This document shows, one piece after another, positions 4,852 to 41,984 of a stretch of DNA of 64,000 bases. The DNA is from a phage. The stretch lies in sequence record PZ445428.1. The stretch is one strand, 5' to 3'. Below the pieces are notes generated by a model. It saw only the letters and a program-made list of their open reading frames with translations, had not been told where the DNA came from and made no database searches. The position numbers and the translations under genes were made by a program. Numbering within the stretch: the stretch's first letter is position 1; each line of letters begins with the position of its first letter.

Positions 4852-5742
4852 TTATACCAAATCTTTAAGCGATTCAGCAACTAAAATTTCAATACGTTGT
4901 GCTAACGTATCGATCTCTTCTTTATTAAGATCACCTGGGTCTTTTCCTTCAGGAAGAAGGAAGTTACCAACTACAGGTGTTAAACGTGTTTTTGTACGGA
5001 TTAATTTAGCCAATGCTTGGGCAGCTTTATTACCCGAAGCATCGTTATCTAGTAAGATAACTACTACTCTAACTCCAGCAATAATATATGGGCTGAACTT
5101 ATCTGCAATGTTATCAGAAGTAAACTGATGTGTACCAAAGCAACAAGAGGCATAGTTTATCCCATTATCTTCTAGGTTCAACATATCAAAGATGCCTTCA
5201 ACTAGAACGAGAACTGGAGTATTATATCGTACAGGAAAAATCGGGGGTGAAACTTGTTTAGGTTTTACTAAGTATTTAGGAGGGGCAGAACTGTTTATAG
5301 AACGACCCAGGAATAGGATATTACGTCCAACAGCATCTGTTATTGGGAACACGATTCTGCCTTCCCAGTCTGCTTGATGTTGGAAAGCAAAATATTTCTT
5401 CAAGGTCTTAGAACTGATACCTCGGAAATCACCTTCGAAAAGGTAAGCAGATTCAGGAATTGCAAGATTCGTAGATCCATTCCTGATCTCTGAAATCTTT
5501 TTACGTACTTGTGACAATCTTGGTGACTGTCTGTACTGAGTCTCATTAAAATAATGGTAAATGCTCGGTATACCTTTACCGAAGCCGCAACTCAAGCAAT
5601 GCATAACTCCTGATTCAGGATCAATACGTAAACTTGGGTGCTTATCATCATGATCTGGGTTGAGACAACAGATGAGGATGTCCCCACCTGTGTCTTTGTA
5701 TTCAATGCCTTTCAGATCAAGTAGTTCTGTTATCCTACTCAT
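4852..5742 (-). CDS. DNA primase (DnaG-like, zinc finger plus TOPRIM)
   Basis: Zinc-binding CLNPDHDDKHPS...HCLSCGFG; TOPRIM motifs VLVEGIFDMLN and ILLDNDASG. Confidence 0.85.
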   Translation of the reverse strand: MSRITELLDLKGIEYKDTGGDILICCLNPDHDDKHPSLRIDPESGVMHCLSCGFGKGIPSIYHYFNETQYRQSPRLSQVRKKISEIRNGSTNLAIPESAYLFEGDFRGISSKTLKKYFAFQHQADWEGRIVFPITDAVGRNILFLGRSINSSAPPKYLVKPKQVSPPIFPVRYNTPVLVLVEGIFDMLNLEDNGINYASCCFGTHQFTSDNIADKFSPYIIAGVRVVVILLDNDASGNKAAQALAKLIRTKTRLTPVVGNFLLPEGKDPGDLNKEEIDTLAQRIEILVAESLKDLV

Positions 5743-33522: not shown

Positions 33523-33840
33523 ATGACTTTCCATATTCTGATTGATGATGTTCGTAACTTAAATGGAATGGATATTATCATTCGAACCCCCGAAGCCGCT
33601 GTTGAGTTTCTGAATACAACCGATACCACTGGTCATTTCGTTTATATGGACAACGATCTGGCTGTAGATGGTATGGAAGGTTATCAAATTCTTCGTTTAC
33701 TCTTAGAATTTGGCCAGAGACCCAAGAAAGTGGTACTAGTAACCTCTAACCCGGTAGCTAAAGAGACCATGCGTAATGATCTCCTAGACGAAGGGTATCA
33801 AGAAAGCCCTAATCGTATTGAGTACGATTGGCCGGAGTAA
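33523..33840 (+). CDS. hypothetical protein with receiver-domain-like acidic pocket
   Basis: ILIDDVR...VYMDNDL...VVLVTSNP arrangement is CheY-like; 105 aa. Confidence 0.45.
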   Translation: MTFHILIDDVRNLNGMDIIIRTPEAAVEFLNTTDTTGHFVYMDNDLAVDGMEGYQILRLLLEFGQRPKKVVLVTSNPVAKETMRNDLLDEGYQESPNRIEYDWPE

Positions 33841-33847
33841 ACAAAAG

Positions 33848-34297
33848 ATGAAGGCAGCACTGCTACTAACTGCTGCCCTAGCCTTTAGCTTTAATAGTCA
33901 TGCCACACATGATGCAAAAGAAATAGAATGTATTGCTAAAAACATCTATTTTGAGAGCCGAGGTGAGGGCACGAAGGGAATGCTCGCAGTTGCACAGGTT
34001 ACTAAAAACCGTGTTAACTCTGGTAAGTTCCCTGATACTTACTGTAAAGTAGTATATCAGTCTAACCAGTTTTCTTGGGTATCCAAGAACCCAAAAGTTG
34101 ATAAAACCGATGAGGCTTGGCAAGTTGCTAAGAATTTAGCTAGAGTGATATACTACGTTGATTTACCACAAGATCCAACACATGGAGCGTTATACTTCCA
34201 TAGTGGTAAAGACAAACCTTATTGGACTAAAGTATTTAAGAAAACAACTAAGATCAAAGGACACACGTTCTATAAACCTGTCTCCCAAGAAACTTAA
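33848..34297 (+). CDS. secreted cell-wall hydrolase (SleB/Hydrolase_2-like)
   Basis: Signal peptide MKAALLLTAALAFSFNSHA; NIYFESRGEGTKGMLAVAQVTKNR motif. Confidence 0.6.
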   Translation: MKAALLLTAALAFSFNSHATHDAKEIECIAKNIYFESRGEGTKGMLAVAQVTKNRVNSGKFPDTYCKVVYQSNQFSWVSKNPKVDKTDEAWQVAKNLARVIYYVDLPQDPTHGALYFHSGKDKPYWTKVFKKTTKIKGHTFYKPVSQET

Positions 34298-34305
34298 AAA
34301 TTCGG

Positions 34306-34334
34306 TTGCTTAATGCTTTAAAAACCTGTATAAT
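34306..34334 (+). promoter_or_regulatory. sigma70 early promoter
   Basis: TTGCTTaatgctttaaaaacctgTATAAT. Confidence 0.6.
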
Positions 34335-34365
34335 ACTTTCATAAATTAATGAGAGGAAGCGAAAC

Positions 34366-34536
34366 ATGAAATCAGTTGTAATTATTGGTGTTAATACTCG
34401 TGGTATTCGTACTACTAAAACTGTTAAAACTGCTAAGATTTCTGATGTTACATCAAACCCTAGCAAGTTTGATTTCGCTAAAGTCTCGGCAGTTATGACT
34501 GAAAAATCTTTTAATCAAACACTGGAAGCAAAATAA
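34366..34536 (+). CDS. hypothetical small protein (56 aa, not in ORF track)
   Basis: ATG after GAGAGGAAG; reads MKSVVIIGVNTRGIRTTK...; stop overlaps next ATG. Confidence 0.4.
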   Translation: MKSVVIIGVNTRGIRTTKTVKTAKISDVTSNPSKFDFAKVSAVMTEKSFNQTLEAK

Positions 34537-34979
34537 TGGAAGAGAATATCCTAGACGTTCTGCGTAGAGCTTTACAAGCATCTAAAGTAAATGGTTCTGA
34601 TAAAGAAGTAGTGAAGAGCTACCAGACTATAATTGGCGATCTTCAGCGGGTAGATAAAGACTTTATCACTTCTGAACAATTTGTAAATTATCTGAAAGCT
34701 CAGTTAAAGAGCATTGAAGCAACTAAAGCAAAACTGCAGGGTGCTGATCTGCAAAACTATAGTCTGCAATCTGCTCAGTATGAATATGTACTTAACAGTT
34801 ATTTAGAGAAGTATCTGCCTCCGCAGATGTCCTCTACTGAAATACGCAATTACTTTGCAGAATTAGTTAAACTGAATCCAGGTATTACCAAAGGTACCCT
34901 GATGAAAGCGATTAAGGAAGAATTTTCTGGTCGTTATGATGGTAAACTTGCAGCTCAAGTTGCTGGCGAATTTAATTAA
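34536..34979 (+). CDS. GatB/YqeY-domain protein
   Basis: C-terminal YLEKYLPPQMSSTEIRNYFAELV...GTLMKAIKEEFSGRYDGKLAAQVAGE resembles the YqeY family. Confidence 0.55.
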   Translation: MEENILDVLRRALQASKVNGSDKEVVKSYQTIIGDLQRVDKDFITSEQFVNYLKAQLKSIEATKAKLQGADLQNYSLQSAQYEYVLNSYLEKYLPPQMSSTEIRNYFAELVKLNPGITKGTLMKAIKEEFSGRYDGKLAAQVAGEFN

Positions 34980-34987
34980 AAATTGAT

Positions 34988-35016
34988 TTGCTAAATGCTT
35001 CAAAAGTTGATATAAT
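34988..35016 (+). promoter_or_regulatory. sigma70 early promoter driving the ORF-free structured region
   Basis: TTGCTAaatgcttcaaaagttgaTATAAT. Confidence 0.6.
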
Positions 35017-35021
35017 AGTTA

Positions 35022-36144
35022 CATAAATTAGAGAGAACAGCGAGCCGATTACGCTGAGTGCAGAATCCCAACCGGAGCGCATTGAATAGAGTCGGTGAGT
35101 TGTACTAGGATTCCTGATTAGAGAGGTTCCAGGCACCGCAGGGTTTACTCTGTACCGCTTCCAGCTATCGATATCAGGAATGAATAGTGCGCAAAACTCG
35201 GGAGCTGTCCCGAAACCTCGTAAACTCTTCTCTCTAATTTAATTAAACGATGGATCTCAGCACGAGCCAGTCACAGTGTGAAACATGGTGCGTGACCCAG
35301 GGGTAGAAGACTAGGAGTTGGCTTGAGAAACCCATGTAACTCCTAACGCTGACCCGTCTAGGTTGCAAATCGAGACATGTGTATATCACAATGAGGTAAG
35401 TGACCATCAAATAGTGGGTAGCGTAATTTTTAGGTGAATGATGGAGGTCTAACGACTGAGGGCATCATCTCGGGATTACCAGCCACGAAATAGTGGGGTG
35501 TCGAACTGACTTATGTAATAACACTGCCGTCCTAGTATAAACGGTAATATCAAGCCGTAACTGGTGGAAGATGTAGGTTCGAATCCTACGGTCGGTAAGA
35601 ATTAGATAACTCGGGCTTATACCGGATAAGCATTCGCTGCGGAAGTACATACTATGACGGTTCAGGAGGTACGCCGCCTGATCAGTATGAGGTTAGAATC
35701 GAAACCGCTAAACCACGAGGAAACCTGACGGCCTCAGCCAAACTCGGAAACTCAGGATCGCTGCTTAGTGCGTGCCCTGTTTTAACCTAGAGACTAAGCA
35801 CTCCAGCTTCGCATCGAAAATCGGAGGTGCGATTCTACTAGACCGCGTAACTATGAGAGGGGGAAATGCTCACATGAAACATGTGACTAATGGTGCACAA
35901 TAGAACAGGTAAACGCGATAAGTCCTGTTGAGTAGCAGCAGAAGGCTGGGAGTCATGACCTGAGCCTAACCGAGTTCTCCACATAGGGAGGACATAACCA
36001 CGAAGTCACCTTGACTTAAACTGGAAGATATTGTCTGACGGCAGGGCTGAAGAGCTTAATCTGAGGGGGCTGACCCTACCTACCGCCGGGTATCTTTAAG
36101 AGCTTTTGAGAGAGTTCTTAAAAATACCTAACAAAATCTATTTT
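35022..36144 (+). ncRNA. candidate structured stable RNA(s) or tRNA-like elements, about 1.1 kb ORF-free
   Basis: No ORF on either strand apart from one spurious minus ORF; higher GC; many hairpins (TAGGAGTT...AACTCCTA; AGAGAGAA...TTCTCTCT about 200 nt apart); T-arm-like GTAGGTTCGAATCCTAC at 35573-35589. Confidence 0.4.
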
Positions 36145-36219
36145 CGGGGTGTAGTCTAAGGGATAGGCAGGAGTCTTCTAAATTCCTTTATGCAGGTTCG
36201 AATCCTGTCACCTCGGCCA
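36145..36219 (+). tRNA. tRNA-Arg (anticodon TCT)
   Basis: Hand-folded cloverleaf: acceptor CGGGGTG/CACCTCG, anticodon loop CTTCTAA, T-arm GCAGG-TTCGAAT-CCTGT, encoded CCA. Confidence 0.8.
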
Positions 36220-36245
36220 ATTTTATTAACTAGTAGGAAAATAAA

Positions 36246-36446
36246 ATGAAAACACGATATATAGTAAAAGCAGTAGGTGAACATTCTCAAGTAAATACCA
36301 CTGATGTTACAGCACTAGCGTTTGAAGTAGTCTCCGGTATAGTTATATTTCATAATGGAGATATTAAAGCACCTGAATTTGCTGTGGATTCTGGCCTGTT
36401 TATTTCTGCCACTAAAGTAACTGTAGTATCTAACTCTTCTAAATAA
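36246..36446 (+). CDS. hypothetical protein
   Basis: 66-aa ORF. Confidence 0.4.
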   Translation: MKTRYIVKAVGEHSQVNTTDVTALAFEVVSGIVIFHNGDIKAPEFAVDSGLFISATKVTVVSNSSK

Positions 36447-36457
36447 TAAGGAAATAT

Positions 36458-37402
36458 ATGTTTACTAAAAACACTAAAGAACTAACTTCTGAACAAAAAG
36501 TAATTCGTACTATTAAACGTTGGGGTGTTGGTGCTGTAGTTGGTCTTGGTGCTCTTATTCTGGCTCTCAATTCCTATACAGTTGTTCAGGACGGTACTGT
36601 AAAGACTCAGACATTCTTGGGTAAAGTTAACCCGAACCCTGTACTGCCAGGGTTTCACATTGTCAACCCATTCGCTTCTTTTGATACTTTTAGTACGAAA
36701 GATATTTCCATGAAACTGGATAAGCTTCAGGTTCCTAGCCAGGATAAGTTTAAGTCCACTGTTGATATTACTGTTATGTTGCAGTTCGATGGTGCTAAAG
36801 CTCCGATGAACCGTGTTAACGCAGGTACTCAGGATCAGGCGCTGAACAAGTATGTTGAAGAGAAGATGCTGTCTACTATCCGTGAATTTGGTAAGTCTGT
36901 ACCGAAAGCACAGGATCTGTTCGACGCTAAGATTCAGGCACAGCTGCAAACTGCAATTCAGCAGGAAGTTGAAGAATATGCTCGTCCTTATGGTTACACC
37001 GTGAAGCAAGTATTCCTTCAGGATATTACACTTCCGCCAGTAATCATGGAACAGGTTCAGAACACAAAAGTTCGTGAAGAACAAGTTAACGCCGCTAAAG
37101 CTGAACTAGCTCGTGTTGAACAAGAAGCACAGCAGAAAGTTAAGCAAGCTGAAGCAGATCGTTCTGCTCGTGAAAACATGGCAGTAGCTAACGAACGTGA
37201 CGCAGATGCTAAACTGTACGCAGCTAAGAAAGAAGCTGAAGCTAACGCCGCACTGCAACGTACCATTACCCCTGAAATGATTCGTTGGAAACAGCTGGAA
37301 GTTGAAATGCTTCGTGCTGAGAAATATCAGGGTGGTGTACCGCAGACTGTAGTTGGTACTGGTTATGATGGCCAGATGATCATGGATATGCGTAACAAGT
37401 AA
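36458..37402 (+). CDS. SPFH/band-7 (stomatin/prohibitin-like) membrane protein
   Basis: N-terminal TM segment, SPFH-like core, long C-terminal coiled coil (EQEAQQKVKQAEADR). Confidence 0.6.
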   Translation: MFTKNTKELTSEQKVIRTIKRWGVGAVVGLGALILALNSYTVVQDGTVKTQTFLGKVNPNPVLPGFHIVNPFASFDTFSTKDISMKLDKLQVPSQDKFKSTVDITVMLQFDGAKAPMNRVNAGTQDQALNKYVEEKMLSTIREFGKSVPKAQDLFDAKIQAQLQTAIQQEVEEYARPYGYTVKQVFLQDITLPPVIMEQVQNTKVREEQVNAAKAELARVEQEAQQKVKQAEADRSARENMAVANERDADAKLYAAKKEAEANAALQRTITPEMIRWKQLEVEMLRAEKYQGGVPQTVVGTGYDGQMIMDMRNK

Positions 37403-37427
37403 TAGACATACGTAACATCTGAAGTAA

Positions 37428-37460
37428 GCCCGCGTTTCCTCCGAGAGCGCGGGCTTTTCT
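37428..37460 (+). terminator. intrinsic terminator after the SPFH gene
   Basis: GCCCGCG...CGCGGGC hairpin followed by TTTTCT. Confidence 0.65.
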
Positions 37461-37474
37461 GTATTTAAGGCAAA

Positions 37475-37510
37475 AGAAAAGCCCCTTACCTTTCGGCAGG
37501 GGCTTTGTTT
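37475..37510. terminator. bidirectional terminator at convergent junction
   Basis: GCCCCT...AGGGGC hairpin flanked by T-runs on both strands. Confidence 0.55.
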
Positions 37511-37720
37511 TTGGTTTAGAACCATACTCTCTTGTTACAGCAACCACCCATACGGGAGACCAATCTTGACTGAAAATCTACTCTAGGGGGCAGGATAAGA
37601 GTAGGCTTAAAGGCAAACGGATTGAACACCGGTATTTGCGTAAACATTGCTGGAGAGCAACAACGTGCTACAGGCATTGGGCAGCATGATGTAGGCTTTC
37701 TACAACACATTTAAACCTCC

Positions 37721-38149
37721 TTAGGAGTTATTCCCATTGTTTTGAGCTTTTGCAATCTGACTCTGGCAGTAGCTGTTAAACTTCCCCATGTAAGAGACAA
37801 GAAGCTTTCCATCCTCTGTTTTAGCGAATTCTTCGAAAAGGGACAATACGGCCTGTCCCTCAGCAGAAACTTGCTGTTGTTGAGGTTGTTGAACCTGCTG
37901 CTGTTGAGGCATTTGCATCTGCTGCTGAGGCTGCATTTGTTGAGGCATTTGCGGCTGCCCGCTCATTTGCTGCATCATCTGCATAGGGTTTACACTTCCA
38001 GGATTCTGCTGGAATTGCTGTTGCATATTCTGAGCTTCTGCCAAACGCTGTTGCAACTGCTGTAGGTAAGGGTTATCCAGACCCGGAACGGGCTGCTGGG
38101 AGCCCATTGGTTGATTAAATCCGTTGTTTACAAAACCATATTTACTCAT
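37721..38149 (-). CDS. Gln/Pro/Met-rich low-complexity protein
   Basis: 142 aa with a long QQMQPQQQMQMPQQQQVQQPQQQQ tract; on the opposite strand to all surrounding genes. Confidence 0.55.
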   Translation of the reverse strand: MSKYGFVNNGFNQPMGSQQPVPGLDNPYLQQLQQRLAEAQNMQQQFQQNPGSVNPMQMMQQMSGQPQMPQQMQPQQQMQMPQQQQVQQPQQQQVSAEGQAVLSLFEEFAKTEDGKLLVSYMGKFNSYCQSQIAKAQNNGNNS

Positions 38150-38170
38150 AATGGGCTCCTCCCCTTAATA

Positions 38171-39166
38171 TTAAGCTGGCAGCTTAGCTTGTAGGCCAGC
38201 CAGCGTCTGAGTGATAGCACCTAGGCTAACAGCGATCTGGTTGATTACCTGACCGTTTGCACCACTACCCTGAGCGATTGCTTCGCGTAGACGACATTCG
38301 TTCAGTTCGTCCTGGATACGCGCAGTAGTTACACCAGCGATCGCAGACTGAAGTTCACAGCAGCACTCAGCAATCTGACGTTCCAGAGAGTTCTGGTTAG
38401 CACACATCTGAGCCTGAACAGCGGCGAACTGGTTGTTTGTCTGGATAGACTGAGCAAAAGAGATCTGTGCAGCATCAAACTTGTCCTGTGCACGAGCGAT
38501 CTGGTTAGCAGCGAAAGCTTGATCCATCTGACGAGAAAGATCGAACTGACCCTGAATAACGTTACGAGTTTCCTGACAGATCTGGTTGGACAGGTTAGCA
38601 CCAGTACCATACACAGTAGTCAGAATCTGTTGAGTGCTAGAAGCTTGAGCAGCACCTACACCATTAACAGCGTTTAGAACAGCACCAGTACCTTGATTTG
38701 CTTCAGTACGAGTAGTGTTGATTGCAGCTAGAATACTTGCAGTATCCTGGTTGGAAAGGATAGCGTCCACAGCAGTTCCCTCAGTGGCAACACCAGCACC
38801 ACGACCTAAACCACCGAAACCACCGAATCCGCCTGTTAATAGAGCACCAATCAGGATAGCTCCGAATAGACCCATACCTTCACCACCGAAAGCACCCTGT
38901 GCAGCAGCTGGGTAACCACCCATCAGACCTGGGAAGCCGCTAGTGAATACGTTTACTGGTTCTTGCATTTTATGTTTCCTATGTTTATGACAGCCCTCAT
39001 GGTCGTCATCTTCTTCATCGTCATCATCGTGATCACGATGTTTCTTTTCGTAGGCTTTGACCTTCTCCCACTTATGTTTGTCTGATTCCTCATGACGTCT
39101 CAGTTCTGCTGCGACTTCACTTACGGTCTCAGGTTTCTTAGTTACTTCATCTGTCATTTTTGACAC
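38171..39166 (-). CDS. hypothetical protein: His/Asp-rich N-terminus, glycine-zipper hydrophobic segment, Ala/Gln-rich C-terminus
   Basis: 331 aa; HRDHDDDDEEDDDHEGCHKHRKHK, then GLFGAILIGALLTGGFGGFGGLG, then a Q/A-rich helical region with CCC cluster. Confidence 0.55.
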   Translation of the reverse strand: MSKMTDEVTKKPETVSEVAAELRRHEESDKHKWEKVKAYEKKHRDHDDDDEEDDDHEGCHKHRKHKMQEPVNVFTSGFPGLMGGYPAAAQGAFGGEGMGLFGAILIGALLTGGFGGFGGLGRGAGVATEGTAVDAILSNQDTASILAAINTTRTEANQGTGAVLNAVNGVGAAQASSTQQILTTVYGTGANLSNQICQETRNVIQGQFDLSRQMDQAFAANQIARAQDKFDAAQISFAQSIQTNNQFAAVQAQMCANQNSLERQIAECCCELQSAIAGVTTARIQDELNECRLREAIAQGSGANGQVINQIAVSLGAITQTLAGLQAKLPA

Positions 39167-39218
39167 CTCCTAGTATATAGAAAATGTGTGTCTCTTTGAT
39201 CACTCATCCATAACATAT

Positions 39219-39248
39219 ACTTTACACTACCCCAGCGAAAATGTCAAG
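39219..39248 (-). promoter_or_regulatory. atypical promoter for the minus-strand island (TTGACA-18-TAAAGT)
   Basis: Reverse complement reads TTGACAttttcgctggggtagtgTAAAGT; lacks the conserved early-promoter downstream box. Confidence 0.35.
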
Positions 39249-39364
39249 GGGTCTTTAAAAATTGCCCCCGGATTTTTATTGGGGTAATAATTTTGGGGTC
39301 TGCCCACTCACCTGCTACCCTTAAGTGCCCTACTATTTTCCTACAAAAAGTTTAAAAATTCGAT

Positions 39365-39392
39365 TGCTTGAACGCTAAATTCTCTGTATAAT
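39365..39392 (+). promoter_or_regulatory. sigma70 early promoter
   Basis: TTGCTTgaacgctaaattctctgTATAAT. Confidence 0.6.
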
Positions 39393-39423
39393 ATATTTAT
39401 AAATTAATGAGAAGGAAGTAAAT

Positions 39424-39888
39424 ATGAACAAGTTCAAAGGCATTCGAGTTATTCCTTGTCTTATTCCTAAAACCTTCAAAAGATTCGCTGAATGGCGTGG
39501 TGATGAAGAAGAACTTAGTCATTGCTTCCATAAATATAAAGAAATAGAGTGTGAACCACGTTTCAATCGTCCAGGTCTTTACATGGATCGTATTAACAAA
39601 GAAGCATGGTACGAACTAGAAATGCTTGATGGTACTATTCGAGCTTTCAGCACAGAATATGAGCATCAAGAATGGGTCTGGAAGTATAAGTACTCTCACG
39701 GTGATCGTATTCTGAACAAAGGCGAATATGAAGAAATGCGCCGTATGTTCCAACTATATAACGTGCCTCTAGAGCAGCAGCCAGATGTATACAGAGCTAG
39801 CCGTGAATACTGGCATGATAAAGCAATAGGACGAGATATGGAGTTGTGTTTACTTCGTTCTTCTAAACGAAAAGCTGAGAAGGAATAA
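39424..39888 (+). CDS. hypothetical protein
   Basis: 154-aa ORF. Confidence 0.5.
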   Translation: MNKFKGIRVIPCLIPKTFKRFAEWRGDEEELSHCFHKYKEIECEPRFNRPGLYMDRINKEAWYELEMLDGTIRAFSTEYEHQEWVWKYKYSHGDRILNKGEYEEMRRMFQLYNVPLEQQPDVYRASREYWHDKAIGRDMELCLLRSSKRKAEKE

Positions 39889-39893
39889 AAATA

Positions 39894-40184
39894 ATGAAAC
39901 ACTACGCAGAACGTGAAATTGATGAATTAGACTTTGCTGGCGGGTTTTATTCCACCCATGTTAGTGCTATGACCGCAGAAGGACTTAATTCTAAGTCGGC
40001 TATTGCGGCAGAATTAGCATTTCGTGATTTTACTATTGCTGAAATGCAAGAGCATATTATGCGACTAGAGAATCAGGTGGATGAACTCCTGAAGCACAAT
40101 GAGGAACTAGGTGAAGATCTCCATGAACTCACAGAAGAACGTGATACTCTTTACATGAAGTTAGCCGGTCATGAATCTTTTTAA
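39894..40184 (+). CDS. hypothetical protein
   Basis: 96-aa ORF. Confidence 0.5.
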   Translation: MKHYAEREIDELDFAGGFYSTHVSAMTAEGLNSKSAIAAELAFRDFTIAEMQEHIMRLENQVDELLKHNEELGEDLHELTEERDTLYMKLAGHESF

Positions 40185-40190
40185 ATTTAT

Positions 40191-40219
40191 TTGCTAAATA
40201 ACTTGAATTTCTATATAAT
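40191..40219 (+). promoter_or_regulatory. sigma70 early promoter
   Basis: TTGCTAaataacttgaatttctaTATAAT then ATAAATTTGAGAGAGGAAG. Confidence 0.6.
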
Positions 40220-40249
40220 ATACTTATAAATTTGAGAGAGGAAGCAAAT

Positions 40250-41314
40250 ATGATTAAGACTGGTCTAGTAATTGGTAAATTCGCACCATTAACTCGTGGT
40301 CATATCAACCTTATTAATACTGCGGCGACAATGTGTGAGCGCGTTATCGTTGTAGTTAGCCACGACAATCGTTGGCTGGATAAGCAAAACTCTAGGGATC
40401 AAGAAGTCCTACAGTTGAAGAATCGTTTACGATGGCTTGAGCAGACTTATGCAGATATTGAGCATGTGGAAATCCACGATCTTATCGAAGATGATATTCC
40501 TGAGTACCCTAATGGATGGGAAGCATATACCAAGATACTCCAGGAGTGTTATGGTATGTATCCTGAAATCACTATCTTTTCTAGTGAAATTGGGTATGAT
40601 GCGGAGTACAAAAAGTATCTGCCAAACTTCGGCCATTATATTGTAGACTCGGAACGCACTCGTGTACCAATCTCTGCTACTATGATTCGTGAGAATCTGA
40701 TGAAGTATTGGGAGTTCCTGCCTAGCATAGTTCGTAAAGACTATGTTCGCAAGGTAGTTGTTATCGGTACTGAAAGCTCTGGCAAGACAACTTTAACAAA
40801 GTATCTTGCGAAGTTATATAATACTTCATGGGTTGAAGAGTATGGTCGTACATACTGTGAAGTTGACTTAGTAGGCAACGAAAGCCTACTGACTAGCGAC
40901 GACTACACGAAGATTGCATTTAGGCACAAAGAGCTAGAGTTTGAAGCAGAATGTACTGCAAATAAGATCATGTTTGTGGATACCAATGCTTTCATTACTG
41001 AGTTCTACCATAGACTCTACGAACATCGTAAGAATCCTGTGGTTACGGCTATTGCGAAAGAAGAACATTACGATTTAGTTATTGTTCTAGCACCTACTGT
41101 GAAGTGGGTAGATGATGGTTTACGTATTAACTCAGATCGTTCTATTACTTCAGAACTATTCGAGCAGATGAAGGAGGAGTTCCCTAACCAATTCCCAGAG
41201 GGACGCACTGTTTATATCGACTCACCGGACTACAAAGTTCGTATGGACGAAGCTGTAAATGCTGTAGACTGGTTAATTCATTATGTTGACGCGGGAGCTA
41301 TCCAATATGACTAA
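40250..41314 (+). CDS. nadR: bifunctional NMN adenylyltransferase / ribosylnicotinamide kinase (NadR-like, no HTH)
   Basis: GKFAPLTRGHINLI, NRLRWL, YPNGWEAY, ISATMIRENLMKYWEFLP and kinase P-loop VVVIGTESSGKTTL align along E. coli NadR. Confidence 0.85.
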   Translation: MIKTGLVIGKFAPLTRGHINLINTAATMCERVIVVVSHDNRWLDKQNSRDQEVLQLKNRLRWLEQTYADIEHVEIHDLIEDDIPEYPNGWEAYTKILQECYGMYPEITIFSSEIGYDAEYKKYLPNFGHYIVDSERTRVPISATMIRENLMKYWEFLPSIVRKDYVRKVVVIGTESSGKTTLTKYLAKLYNTSWVEEYGRTYCEVDLVGNESLLTSDDYTKIAFRHKELEFEAECTANKIMFVDTNAFITEFYHRLYEHRKNPVVTAIAKEEHYDLVIVLAPTVKWVDDGLRINSDRSITSELFEQMKEEFPNQFPEGRTVYIDSPDYKVRMDEAVNAVDWLIHYVDAGAIQYD

Positions 41315-41984
41315 TTATCTTGTAAATGACTTTAAAAACTGGAAACCTCTGGAATATCTGTGGCTGTTCATTGCAGTGGCCTTCATTAGTTTGGCTAACT
41401 ATAATGGTACAGCACTAGATTGGGCAACAGCAATCACCAACGTTGTTTGTGTTATTCTGGTTGCAAAGGGGCGTGTTTCTAACTATGTCTGGGGTTTGGT
41501 AGGTGTTCTGACCTACGGAATTACAGCTCTAAATGCTGATCTTTATGGTAACGCAGCGCTAAACCTGTTGTACTACGTCCCTATGCAGTTCTACGGAATG
41601 TACTTGTGGCATAAAAATAAGCCAAGTAATCTGCCGGATGTTCCAACTAAAGTTCTGACAAAAGCTCAAGCTTTGCTGACTCTAGGGATTTTAGCAGTAG
41701 CAACATTAGGTTATGGTAGTTTCCTTGCTACTACGGCTGATCCATTCCCAATGTTAGACGCATTTACCGCGGTTGGCAGTGTGATTGCTATGTGGCTTAT
41801 GGTTAAGCAGTATGCTGAACAGTGGCTGATCTGGATTGCCATTAACTTTGGTACTGTGTACATCTGGCTTGTAACTGCCCAATCTACGGGTGCATCTTAC
41901 GCAATCCTGGCAATGTGGCTGGTATTCTTAGGTAACTCTATTATGGGAGCCTATAAAGGCTACTTTGTAAGAGTTAACAAGTAA
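41307..41984 (+). CDS. pnuC: nicotinamide riboside transporter PnuC
   Basis: Multi-TM protein; DAFTAVGSVIAMWLMVKQYAEQWLIWIAINFGTVYIWL matches the PnuC conserved core. Confidence 0.8.
   Translation: MTNYLVNDFKNWKPLEYLWLFIAVAFISLANYNGTALDWATAITNVVCVILVAKGRVSNYVWGLVGVLTYGITALNADLYGNAALNLLYYVPMQFYGMYLWHKNKPSNLPDVPTKVLTKAQALLTLGILAVATLGYGSFLATTADPFPMLDAFTAVGSVIAMWLMVKQYAEQWLIWIAINFGTVYIWLVTAQSTGASYAILAMWLVFLGNSIMGAYKGYFVRVNK

What the first reader, a model, noticed from the sequence alone, without database searches (positions are those of the whole stretch)
37721..39248. Inverted two-gene island with low-complexity proteins and an atypical promoter
Two minus-strand genes are embedded in an otherwise plus-strand region and bounded by a bidirectional terminator. 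One protein is Gln/Pro/Met-rich (QQMQPQQQ tracts); the other has a His/Asp-rich metal-binding-like N-terminus, a glycine-zipper membrane segment and an Ala/Gln-rich C-terminus. Their promoter (TTGACA-18-TAAAGT) lacks the conserved early-promoter downstream box, which suggests different temporal control. No obvious family match by eye.
Basis: seen in the sequence. Interest (0 to 1): 0.65.

Follow-up and report, generated by a model that had tools for sequence, protein, structure and literature searches.

The report
Mobile three-gene phage cassette, function unknown
The flagged island is a real, self-contained three-gene (not two-gene) accessory operon of T5-like phages, equivalent to T5 genes T5.077-T5.079, which is dispensable in the laboratory, has moved between unrelated phage families, and encodes proteins with no characterised relatives.

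Summary
The window is Escherichia phage TrudiGerster (Bas27, T5-like). The two minus-strand genes exist and their compositions are as described. The unit has three genes: A (328 aa), B (142 aa) and a missed 64-aa Cys/Pro-rich gene C (37516-37710). The terminator lies after C, outside the given coordinates. The promoter is TTGACA-17-TAAAGT (not 18) and does lack the box shared by 17 early promoters in the window. Orthologues are T5.077-079, annotated with promoter P12 and a bidirectional terminator. They lie inside the T5st0 deletion and score 'Not Fit' in a published knock-down screen, so they are not essential virion or lysis genes. The same A-B-C cassette sits in lambdoid, N4-like and Pseudomonas KPP23-like phages, there with a divergent zinc-ribbon gene D. 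A belongs to a phage-wide superfamily with a Gly-rich hydrophobic anchor, a long helix and a CCC[E/D] motif, found also in Clostridium and gut phages. No member has a known function. Best guess, held at low confidence: a membrane-anchored helical rod with thiol- or metal-linked partners, serving an accessory role, possibly in conflict with the host or other phages. Moderately interesting; the mechanism is not shown.

The parts
39248..39263 (-). Conserved element AATTTTTAAAGACCCC immediately upstream of the -35 hexamer
   Evidence: Kept in 18 T5-like genomes and also in the distant T5-like locus L005, where protein A is only about 40% identical.
39219..39247 (-). Sigma-70-type promoter TTGACA-17-TAAAGT, the counterpart of T5 'promoter P12'. 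It lacks the early-promoter downstream box.
   Evidence: 80% of its columns are invariant in 18 genomes.
39158..39212 (-). 5' untranslated leader, hyper-conserved, containing the Shine-Dalgarno site AGGAGGTG
   Evidence: 96% invariant columns, against 66-72% in the A and B coding sequences. No significantly stable fold (z=-0.8).
38171..39157 (-). Gene A (328 aa; bas27_0089; T5.077 orthologue). N-terminal helix, acidic/His-rich linker, Gly-rich hydrophobic segment 96-114, long alpha-helix about 129-325 carrying the CCC motif at residues 265-267.
37721..38149 (-). Gene B (142 aa; bas27_0088; T5.078 orthologue). Conserved N-terminal helix, variable P/Q/M-rich linker, conserved C-terminal helical domain with an invariant Cys.
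37516..37710 (-). Four Cys-Cys pairs, Pro-rich, no signal peptide.
   Evidence: Third-codon positions vary in only 13 of 65 codons.
37470..37506 (.). Bidirectional intrinsic terminator: GC-rich hairpin flanked by an A-tract and a T-tract. It ends the A-B-C operon.
   Evidence: -22.2 kcal/mol, z=-3.85. T5 annotates the equivalent as an 'efficient bidirectional rho-independent transcription terminator'.
37426..37466 (+). Separate plus-strand terminator of the convergent band-7/PHB-domain gene. It belongs to the neighbour and marks the boundary of the cassette.

Best explanation
This is a self-contained, horizontally mobile accessory operon (a moron-type cassette): promoter, genes A-B-C, terminator. 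It is orthologous to T5.077-T5.079.

Shown. It is a three-gene unit with its own conserved non-early-type promoter and its own terminator. It is dispensable for lytic growth and for virions in the laboratory. It occurs as the same gene trio in at least four unrelated phage architectures. Protein A belongs to a phage-wide superfamily defined by a Gly-rich hydrophobic segment, a long alpha-helix and a CCC[E/D] motif.

Inferred mechanism. A inserts in the cytoplasmic membrane through its glycine-zipper segment. Family-wide charge bias favours N-terminus out and rod in the cytoplasm. It oligomerises through its helix of about 155-195 residues, whose conserved C-terminal third has coiled-coil spacing. 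B consists of a helix, a flexible P/Q linker and a helical hairpin with an invariant Cys. C carries Cys-Cys pairs and is Pro-rich. B and C attach to the rod through thiol- or metal-mediated contacts around the CCC cluster. In distant relatives a Cys/Pro-rich tail is fused to A itself and no separate C gene follows.

The resulting membrane-attached assembly would serve an accessory role that matters outside standard laboratory conditions. My guess is conflict at the cell envelope, such as exclusion of other phages or interference with or evasion of host defence. That guess rests only on the cassette's moron-like behaviour; nothing tested here addresses it. In temperate and other hosts, expression is probably set by the divergent zinc-ribbon protein D. 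T5-like phages have replaced D with a fixed sigma-70 promoter.
For: Identity and orthology.

Three genes with strong ribosome-binding sites. B and C are intact in 18/18 T5-like genomes and A in 17/18. Codon-position variation is typical of purifying selection (A: 78/48/208 variable first/second/third positions).

Promoter and terminator.

Dispensability: the T5st0 deletion removes T5 33,681-41,878, which includes T5.077-079. The CRISPRi-ART screen scores all three 'Not Fit' (PMC11879866, supplementary file 16).

Mobility: the same A-B-C trio sits between Q and the holin, in opposite orientation, in three lambdoid contigs. It also occurs in an N4-like E. coli phage, in Pseudomonas KPP23-like phages next to terminase, and in a distant T5-like phage. 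The cassette is the GC outlier of the window (47.6% against 40.9 +/- 1.9%).

Superfamily: the profile search gave 186 representatives at E<=1e-3. Of the 145 hits outside the query's own set, 110 carry a CCC triplet (65 CCCE, 15 CCCD) at median relative position 0.69.

Structure: AlphaFold2 with 98 sequences gave mean pLDDT 73.9, helix 169-325 with pLDDT mostly 80-97, and N-terminal helix 12-44 with pLDDT 93-95. The hydrophobic core is at residues 96-114.

Topology: flanks of the hydrophobic core have more K+R on the C side in 41 members and fewer in 12. B and C lack any signal-like hydrophobic N-terminus.

Complementary pattern: A proteins ending in Cys/Pro-rich tails (Yersinia phage P400, P0029, Clostridium and gut phages) have no separate C gene. 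A proteins without such a tail have gene C.

Gene D and palindromic spacer.
Against: No experiment or homology assigns any function. Membrane insertion, topology, oligomerisation and A-B-C contacts are all inferred.

The T5-type A has a charged N-terminal part of about 95 residues, which is awkward for an N-out topology.

The helix shows no significant heptad periodicity over its whole length.

AlphaFold2 gives only a single extended helix with pTM 0.35, and fold searches found nothing.

B is not detectably related to the Q/M-rich partners seen in Firmicutes phages.

No prophage copy was found in 185,579 species-representative genomes or in 5,426 complete E. coli genomes. Lysogenic-conversion-type benefits are therefore not documented.

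The conflict or exclusion role is a guess from its moron-like behaviour only.
Confidence: 0.4

Rival explanations
1. Lysis accessory. A acts like an i-spanin or antiholin: a membrane-anchored coiled coil with Cys residues that reaches across the envelope. B and C act as partners that tune or complete lysis.
For: A has a membrane anchor, a long helix of about 23-29 nm and conserved Cys residues. The lambdoid copies lie directly beside holin, lysozyme and Rz genes. In L036 an A-like gene follows an 82-aa two-TM holin-like ORF. Spanin defects are mild in the laboratory (established knowledge), so dispensability does not exclude this reading.
Against: T5-like phages already encode a holin, an endolysin and a spanin pair elsewhere (PMC6658699, PMC4342426). 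The lambdoid carriers have their own Rz (PF03245). The cassette is transcribed away from the lysis genes from its own promoter. Neither B nor C has a lipobox or signal peptide. Relatives occur in Clostridium phages, whose hosts have no outer membrane. Family-wide charge bias places the rod in the cytoplasm.
Confidence: 0.1
2. Metal-handling module. The His-rich N-terminus of A, the Met/Gln-rich B, the CCC motif and the Cys-Cys-rich C bind or buffer Cu, Zn or Ni during infection.
For: Enrichment of His (11% of A residues 1-70), Met (8% of B) and Cys (12% of C). His-rich N-termini recur in distant members: 14 of the 145 hits outside the query's own set. In Yersinia phage P400 a separate His-rich 102-aa protein follows A. 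All eight Cys of C and the CCC motif are invariant.
Against: The His/Asp tract is absent from many close homologues (P0020-P0023, P0028). The Met/Gln run of B is replaced by Pro-rich linkers in the lambdoid and N4-like copies. There is no match to any metal-binding family. No transporter or enzyme is linked.
Confidence: 0.12
3. Membrane-anchored cytoskeletal scaffold. It would resemble phi29 p16.7 and p1, or bacterial intermediate-filament-like proteins, and would organise phage replication or assembly at the membrane. It would be helpful but not essential.
For: Architecture: anchor, long rod, low-complexity Gly-rich region, cross-linking partners. It is transcribed from a sigma-70-type promoter within the early region. 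It is non-essential.
Against: No DNA-binding or nucleotide-binding domain. No sequence or fold similarity to those proteins. A core infection helper would not be expected to hop as a moron between unrelated phages, or to be missing from about 180 of the 400 phage records that match some part of the 2.1-kb region.
Confidence: 0.12
4. Virion-associated component, such as a head fibre, decoration protein or ejected protein.
For: In some gut-phage genomes the A-like gene lies between portal or minor-capsid genes and the major capsid gene. It travels there with a BclA_C-like beta protein (E=4.4e-7, below the Pfam threshold). In P400 and KPP23 it neighbours head or terminase genes.
Against: T5st0 lacks the genes. 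From established knowledge, it makes normal infectious virions. The promoter is not in the late region. KPP23 annotates other genes as 'virion protein' but not this one. In other genomes the module sits in early or moron positions.
Confidence: 0.05

Closest known systems
Phage T5 genes T5.077, T5.078, T5.079, with promoter P12 and the adjacent bidirectional terminator
   Same: Orthologous trio, about 75-80% protein identity for A. Same order, same promoter and leader sequence, same terminator position next to the band-7/PHB-domain gene.
   Different: All three are only 'hypothetical protein' in T5. The promoter-side flank differs: T5.076 in T5, bas27_0090/0091 here.
Lambdoid morons such as bor and lom, and the HK97 gp15 superinfection-exclusion moron
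   Same: Autonomous promoter-gene-terminator unit, often antisense to neighbouring operons. Patchy distribution, compositional deviation, dispensable, encodes a membrane protein. The lambdoid copies occupy the classical Q-S moron slot.
   Different: Three or four genes rather than one. No homology to any known moron product. No documented expression from a prophage. Also present in virulent phages.
Two-component spanins Rz/Rz1
   Same: A membrane-anchored helical protein with conserved Cys, plus a small Pro/Cys-containing partner.
   Different: No lipobox. Not in the lysis cassette. The phages have separate spanins. Relatives occur in Gram-positive phages. Predicted orientation is opposite.
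phi29 p16.7 and p1, membrane-anchored coiled-coil early proteins
   Same: Single membrane anchor plus coiled coil. Non-essential, or only conditionally needed, proteins encoded in the early region.
   Different: No sequence similarity. No DNA-binding domain. Much longer rod. Cys cluster and dedicated partners.
Glycine-zipper proteins: SlyB and the Rick_17kDa_Anti family PF05433
   Same: Gly-rich hydrophobic stretch with repeated [GAS]xxxGxxxG. The A profile matches SlyB 7ojf weakly (E=0.031).
   Different: No Pfam hit. No lipoprotein signal. The match is confined to the low-complexity Gly region. The remainder of A is unrelated.

Membership tests
Moron-type accessory cassette | Own promoter and own terminator flanking the genes | tested here: met
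   TTGACA-17-TAAAGT and a bidirectional hairpin terminator. Both are annotated in T5.
Moron-type accessory cassette | Patchy distribution, with presence in unrelated phage backbones | tested here: met
   T5-like, lambdoid, N4-like and KPP23-like contexts. Encoded in 223 of the 400 phage records that match some part of the 2.1-kb region.
Moron-type accessory cassette | Dispensable for lytic growth | tested here: met
   Inside the T5st0 deletion. 'Not Fit' in CRISPRi-ART.
Moron-type accessory cassette | Composition deviating from the host phage genome | tested here: inconclusive
   GC 47.6% against 40.9 +/- 1.9%. However, the Ala/Gly/Pro/Gln-rich proteins alone raise GC.
T5 early-promoter class | TTGCTA-type -35, TATAAT -10, upstream A-tract and downstream ATAAATTGA.GAGAGG box | tested here: not met
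   Seventeen window promoters have it. The cassette promoter has TTGACA/TAAAGT and no box. Klimuk et al. report that all early promoters identified so far contain ATATT in the discriminator region (PMC7472727). Here the sequence is ATATG.
Spanin (Rz/Rz1-type) | Small partner is an outer-membrane lipoprotein with a signal peptide and lipobox | tested here: not met
   B and C have no hydrophobic N-terminus (maximum Kyte-Doolittle 19-residue mean 0.48 and 0.98). C starts MCCRK.
Spanin (Rz/Rz1-type) | Located in, and co-transcribed with, the lysis cassette, and the only spanin of the phage | tested here: not met
   Separate spanins are reported for T5-like phages. The lambdoid carriers have PF03245 Rz, and the cassette there is antisense.
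PHROG phrog_8119 / phrog_7894 | Full-length HMM match | tested here: met
   E=3e-192 and E=1.7e-69, both 'unknown function'. C matched no PHROG (C was not in that scan; the CRISPRi-ART re-annotation lists T5.079 as a singleton).
CCC[E/D]-motif phage protein superfamily (defined here; includes phrog_9288 and phrog_16490) | N-terminal Gly-rich hydrophobic segment, long N/Q/A-rich helix, CCC[E/D] at about 0.6-0.75 of the length, C-terminal coiled-coil-like helix | tested here: met
   In the window protein: hydrophobic core 96-114, CCC at 265-267 of 328 (relative position 0.81), followed by E.
Glycine zipper 2TM (PF05433) / SlyB | Significant HMM match to the domain | tested here: not met
   No Pfam hit at E<=1. 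PDB profile hit to SlyB only at E=0.031.
Baculo_PEP_C (PF04513) | Pfam match above the gathering score | tested here: not met
   No hit for the window protein. Distant member P0146 scores 16.9 bits against a cut-off of 38.
Metal-binding protein (metallothionein-like or His-rich) | Bound metal, conserved ligand geometry | not testable with these tools
   Only composition is available. The His and Met tracts are not conserved. The Cys residues are conserved.

The most novel reading that the evidence does not exclude
The CCC[E/D]-motif protein and its partners are a previously unrecognised, widespread phage system found in phages of both Gram-negative and Gram-positive hosts. It would build a membrane-anchored, thiol- or metal-cross-linked helical-rod assembly in the infected or lysogenic cell. 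It would act as a new class of superinfection-exclusion, anti-defence or cell-remodelling device, regulated by its own zinc-ribbon factor where gene D is present.
Probability: 0.25. Interest if true: 0.75.

Novelty: new variant of a known kind. Interest (0 to 1): 0.5.

Why it matters
T5 is a model phage, yet this conserved operon has no assigned function. This work shows that it is a discrete cassette that has moved between T5-like, lambdoid, N4-like and Pseudomonas phages. Its core protein defines a phage-wide family with an invariant triple-cysteine motif. That turns three 'hypothetical proteins' into a tractable target. A natural deletion (T5st0) and the BASEL phage Bas27 are available for direct tests of exclusion, defence evasion or envelope effects. 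If a function is found, it would annotate several hundred phage genes at once (phrog_8119, 9288, 16490 and their partners).

Tried and rejected
- Pfam, NCBIfam and PADLOC scans of A, B and C gave nothing significant.
- PDB sequence searches gave only SlyB at E=0.03 for A and nothing for B.
- AlphaFold2 on 16 sequences gave a low-confidence model. With 98 sequences it gave a confident but single extended helix.
- Foldseek searches of that model against PDB and BFVD found no match at E<=0.001.
- Rfam scan of the region returned only sub-threshold hits on the terminator hairpins.
- Folding of the hyper-conserved leader and of the gene C mRNA gave no significant structure (z=-0.8 and -1.9).
- hhalign of B against the Q/M-rich and P/Q-rich partner proteins of Firmicutes phages found no homology. 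That resemblance is compositional only.
- Scan of 185,579 species-representative genomes found no copy. BLAST of the lambdoid version against 5,426 complete E. coli genomes found no copy. The JGI metagenome scan returned only T5-like contexts.
- Full-text search for T5.077, T5.078 and T5.079 returned 0 papers. I found no transcript time course that covers these genes.
- The protein search with gene D returned only two clusters.
- The spanin idea was rejected (see rival explanations). The annotations 'cAMP-dependent protein kinase' and 'lipoprotein' in some records are artefacts.
Full report
**Identity of the window.** The 2.1-kb region is 100% identical to Escherichia phage TrudiGerster (Bas27, MZ501108; Demerecviridae, Epseptimavirus). 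It is about 90% identical to many Salmonella and Escherichia T5-like phages. Window coordinate = record coordinate minus 32,480.

**Check of the observation.** Two minus-strand ORFs lie where stated: 37721-38149 (142 aa, 'B') and 38171-39166 ('A').
- The probable start of A is the ATG at 39157 (328 aa). AGGAGGTG lies 6 nt upstream and all homologues begin MT(D/E)EV.
- The compositions are as described. B is 27% Gln, with 8% each of Met, Asn and Pro. A residues 1-70 are Glu/Lys/Asp/His-rich (His 11%, Asp 14%). A residues 71-125 are 36% Gly, with a hydrophobic core at 96-114 (Kyte-Doolittle mean 1.72) and five [GAS]xxxGxxxG motifs. A residues 126-328 are 18% Ala and 14% Gln.
- The promoter-like site is TTGACA-17-TAAAGT, so the spacer is 17, not 18 (39247 to 39219, minus strand).
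Seventeen promoter-like sites in the window share AAAAATT..TTGCTA-17-TATAAT-ATA...ATAAATTGA.GAGAGG, the classical T5 early-promoter type. This one does not.
- Klimuk et al. state that T5 early and late promoters differ mainly in the discriminator region, and that all early promoters identified so far contain ATATT there (PMC7472727). Here the discriminator reads ATATG.

- Ten nucleotides after the stop of B, behind TAAGGAGG, lies a third ORF of 64 codons (37516-37710, 'C'): MCCRKPTSCCPMPVARCCSP...GGCCNKRVWF. It has four Cys-Cys pairs and 14% Pro.
- C is annotated in Bas27 (bas27_0087), Sepoy and T5. It is exactly 64 codons with all eight Cys invariant in 18 of 18 T5-like genomes. B is intact in 18/18 and A in 17/18.
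It lies downstream of C: a GC-rich hairpin at 37478-37506, flanked by A- and T-tracts and so bidirectional (-22.2 kcal/mol, z=-3.85).
- A separate plus-strand terminator (37426-37456) for the convergent band-7/PHB-domain gene sits beside it.
- The annotated 55-aa ORF bas27_0086 overlaps both hairpins and is probably not a gene.

**It is already annotated in T5.**
- The orthologues are T5.077 (321 aa), T5.078 (138 aa) and T5.079 (64 aa). The T5 record annotates 'promoter P12' in front of them and an 'efficient bidirectional rho-independent transcription terminator' behind them, beside the major nick at 32.6%.
- A full-text search for the three locus tags found no paper.
- PHROGs places A and B in families of unknown function (phrog_8119, E=3e-192; phrog_7894, E=1.7e-69).
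- Pfam, NCBIfam, PADLOC and PDB sequence searches gave nothing significant.
- Some records label B 'cAMP-dependent protein kinase catalytic subunit'. That is a low-complexity artefact.

**Dispensability.**
- Alignment of T5 with the heat-stable deletion strain T5st0 shows the deletion removes T5 33,681-41,878. That interval contains T5.077-079 (38,064-39,671).
- In the CRISPRi-ART knock-down screen of T5, all three genes are 'Not Fit' (PMC11879866, supplementary file 16).
- The operon is therefore not needed for lytic growth on laboratory E. coli. Because T5st0 virions are normal (established knowledge), it is not an essential structural component.
- T5-like phages also have a holin, an endolysin and a spanin pair elsewhere (PMC6658699, PMC4342426).

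**Mobility.** Only 29 clusters among 5.8 billion proteins resemble A, but their contexts are informative. The same A-B-C trio occurs in:
- a distant T5-like phage (L005);
- three lambdoid contigs, between antiterminator Q and the holin-lysozyme-Rz genes and in the opposite orientation (L006, L011, L012);
- an N4-like E. coli phage, in the variable region after the virion RNA polymerase gene (L013);
- Pseudomonas phages of the KPP23/RSP type, next to terminase (L010, L039).

In all the non-T5 contexts a fourth small gene, 'D' (48-70 aa), is transcribed divergently from A.
- D is a zinc-ribbon protein with a basic tail: C-x2-CG...C-x2-CG...C-x3-CRxRK.
- In L006 the D-A spacer holds a perfect palindrome, TTTCCACGGTGCTAA-TAC-TTAGCACCGTGGAAA.
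- T5-like phages lack D.

Further evidence on distribution:
- The cassette is the GC outlier of the window (47.6% against 40.9 +/- 1.9%). Its amino-acid composition contributes to this.
- It is encoded in 223 of the 400 phage records that match some part of the 2.1-kb query.
- No copy was found in 185,579 species-representative genomes or in 5,426 complete E. coli genomes.

Together these are the properties of a moron-type accessory cassette.

**A wider superfamily.**
- A profile of A searched against 1.84 billion representatives gave 186 proteins at E<=1e-3.
- Of the 145 hits outside the query's own set, 110 carry a CCC triplet, a feature that is very rare by chance. Of these, 65 are CCCE and 15 CCCD, at a median relative position of 0.69.
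- Many share the N-terminal GGGFG...hydrophobic...LLGGRGGFGG segment, an N/Q/A/T-rich helical body and a C-terminal '...ENAALK...' helix.
- Members occur in Yersinia phage P400 (phrog_9288, with a divergent D), Clostridium perfringens phages CPD1 and XP41-N3, and many gut-phage genomes (phrog_16490).
- All are of unknown function.

Two complementary patterns link the parts.
- A proteins that end in a Cys/Pro-rich tail (...PTPPSGCC...GCGCGLV...CGPACCPT) have no separate C gene. Tail-less A proteins (T5-like, lambdoid, N4-like, KPP23-like) are followed by gene C, which has the same composition as those tails.
- The His-rich segment is fused to A in T5-like phages and in some distant members. In P400 it is a separate 102-aa protein.

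In Firmicutes and gut phages the A-like gene travels with other low-complexity proteins:
- a P/Q-rich protein (phrog_21718);
- a 77-aa M/Q-rich protein;
- a BclA_C-like protein (phrog_20016; E=4.4e-7, below the Pfam threshold);
- an RG/Y-rich protein (phrog_28802).

Profile-profile comparison shows no homology between B and these partners. I therefore treat that resemblance as compositional only.

**Anatomy of the proteins.**
- AlphaFold2 with 98 sequences gave a mean pLDDT of 73.9. It shows an N-terminal helix 12-44 (pLDDT 93-95), a disordered acidic/His and Gly-rich stretch, a short helix at 98-107, and helices 129-165 and 169-325.
- The last helix has pLDDT mostly 80-97. It spans 157 residues, about 23 nm if straight.
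- The pTM of 0.35 says the tertiary or quaternary arrangement is undetermined. Fold searches were uninformative.
- The most conserved part of A is the C-terminal third...CANQNALQMQIAECCCELQ...ARIQDELDELRLE...NGQVINQIAVSLGAITQTLAALQAK. By eye it has 3-4 hydrophobic spacing, but over the whole rod heptad periodicity is not significant.
- The His/Asp tract is not conserved, even among T5-like homologues.
- B has a conserved N-terminal helix (PYLQQLQQRLAEAQ), a linker of variable length and composition, and a conserved C-terminal domain (EGQAVLALFEEFAKTEDGKQLVS.MGKFNSFCQS) with an invariant Cys. The linker is Q/M-rich in T5-like phages and Pro-rich elsewhere.
- Neither B nor C has a signal-like N-terminus.
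- Across 75 family members, the flank N-terminal to the hydrophobic core is acidic and poor in Lys/Arg. The C-side flank has more Lys+Arg in 41 members and fewer in 12. By the positive-inside rule this predicts N-out and rod-in-cytoplasm, which fits partners without signal peptides. The long charged N-terminal part of the T5-type protein makes this uncertain for the window protein itself.

**Regulatory peculiarities.**
- In 18 T5-like genomes the promoter (80% invariant columns) and the 55-nt leader (96% invariant, 99.8% mean identity) are far more conserved than the A and B coding sequences (66-72% invariant, about 82% identity).
- The element AAATTTTAAAGACCCC-TTGACA-TTTT...TG-TAAAGT-ATA persists even in the distant T5-like L005.
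- The leader has no significantly stable fold. By eye it contains a short upstream ORF whose TGA overlaps the ATG of A.
- Gene C has suppressed synonymous variation: 13 of 65 third positions vary, against 208 of 329 in A.
- I have no explanation for either observation. They suggest constraint at the nucleotide level, such as an operator, a translational control element, or recent exchange between genomes.

**Most likely mechanism.** The following points are shown:
- a three-gene, self-contained unit;
- a conserved promoter of non-early type;
- dispensability in the laboratory;
- movement between unrelated phages;
- membership of a CCC[E/D]-motif superfamily.

The following points are inferred:
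- A is anchored in the cytoplasmic membrane by its glycine-zipper segment.
- A oligomerises through the long helix.
- B and C attach around the Cys cluster through thiol- or metal-mediated contacts.
- The assembly has an accessory role relevant outside laboratory conditions. My guess is conflict at the envelope with other phages or with host defences. That guess rests only on its moron-like behaviour.
- D regulates the cassette where it is present.

I put about 0.4 on this overall picture and much less on any specific role.

**Rivals.**
- A lysis accessory or spanin-like role (0.10).
- Metal handling (0.12).
- A phi29 p16.7/p1-like membrane scaffold (0.12).
- A virion component (0.05).

The evidence for and against each is given in the Rival explanations section.

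**Novelty and verdict.** The genes, the promoter and the terminator are already in the T5 annotation, so the bare observation is not new. Four things are new here:
- the operon is a discrete three-gene cassette (four genes where D is present);
- it has moved between phage families;
- its core protein defines a broad, wholly uncharacterised phage superfamily with a triple-Cys hallmark;
- its promoter and leader are under unusual constraint.

I rate it a new variant of a known kind (a moron-type accessory cassette with unprecedented protein content), interest 0.5. The most novel reading not excluded is a new class of membrane-anchored phage system. I give that a probability of about 0.25.

Noticed in passing
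window 39158-39212 (minus strand): The 55-nt 5' leader of the operon is 96% invariant across 18 T5-like genomes, while the adjacent coding sequences are 66-72% invariant. It has no significantly stable RNA fold. By eye it contains a 17-codon upstream ORF whose TGA overlaps the ATG of A.
   Followed up: partly
window 37516-37710 (minus strand): Gene C shows strongly suppressed synonymous variation: 13 of 65 third positions vary, against 208 of 329 in gene A. This hints at an additional nucleotide-level constraint or recent exchange. The mRNA fold is only marginal (z=-1.9).
   Followed up: partly
L006 4744-4917 and spacer 4918-5000; also L010, L011, L012, L013, L038, L039: Outside T5-like phages the cassette carries a divergently transcribed 48-70-aa zinc-ribbon protein with a basic tail (gene D). 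In L006 a perfect 15-bp-arm palindrome lies in the D-A spacer, which looks like a dedicated regulator and its operator.
   Followed up: partly
window 299, 399, 8893, 12497 (minus strand); 25108, 30036, 33464, 34988, 40191, 42033, 45990, 47063, 49700, 52291, 59104, 59899, 62305 (plus strand): Seventeen promoter-like sites share the stereotyped T5 early architecture: AAAAATT block, TTGCTA, 17 nt, TATAAT, then ATAAATTGA.GAGAGG running into the ribosome-binding site.
   Followed up: partly
window 37380-37547 (minus strand; bas27_0086): An annotated 55-aa ORF overlaps both terminator hairpins between the convergent operons and is probably not a gene.
   Followed up: no
Sepoy_121 (L002 4324-4740) and other records; KPP23 ORF072/ORF075 (L039): B is annotated 'cAMP-dependent protein kinase catalytic subunit' in several GenBank records, which is a Gln-run artefact. 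In KPP23 the small genes next to A are called in frames that differ from the conserved C and D reading frames.
   Followed up: partly
L040-L044 (Clostridium phages CPD1 and XP41-N3; Dulem viruses 33 and 35; bajarodcaudo virus 2): In Firmicutes and gut phages the A-like gene (phrog_16490) travels with four other uncharacterised families. These are a P/Q-rich protein (phrog_21718), a 77-aa Met/Gln-rich protein, a BclA_C-like beta protein (phrog_20016) and an Arg/Gly/Tyr-rich protein (phrog_28802). The module sits in head, early or lysis-integrase positions in different genomes.
   Followed up: partly
T5 record 37279-37797 (L003 4280-4798), divergent neighbour of the T5 cassette: T5.076 is listed in the CRISPRi-ART re-annotation as an anti-defence gene that subverts retron-mediated defence. 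In TrudiGerster the corresponding flank holds different genes (bas27_0090/0091), so the promoter-side neighbourhood is itself variable.
   Followed up: no
window 21308 (minus strand) and 21367 (plus strand): Two back-to-back perfect-consensus promoters (TTGACA-17/18-TATAAT, 12 of 12 matches) face away from each other. Neither is of the early-box type.
   Followed up: no
L022 (Salmonella phage SE11): Gene A is interrupted in this one genome: the ORF from MT(D/E)EV is only 112 codons, and the record annotates two hypothetical proteins. B and C stay intact.
   Followed up: no
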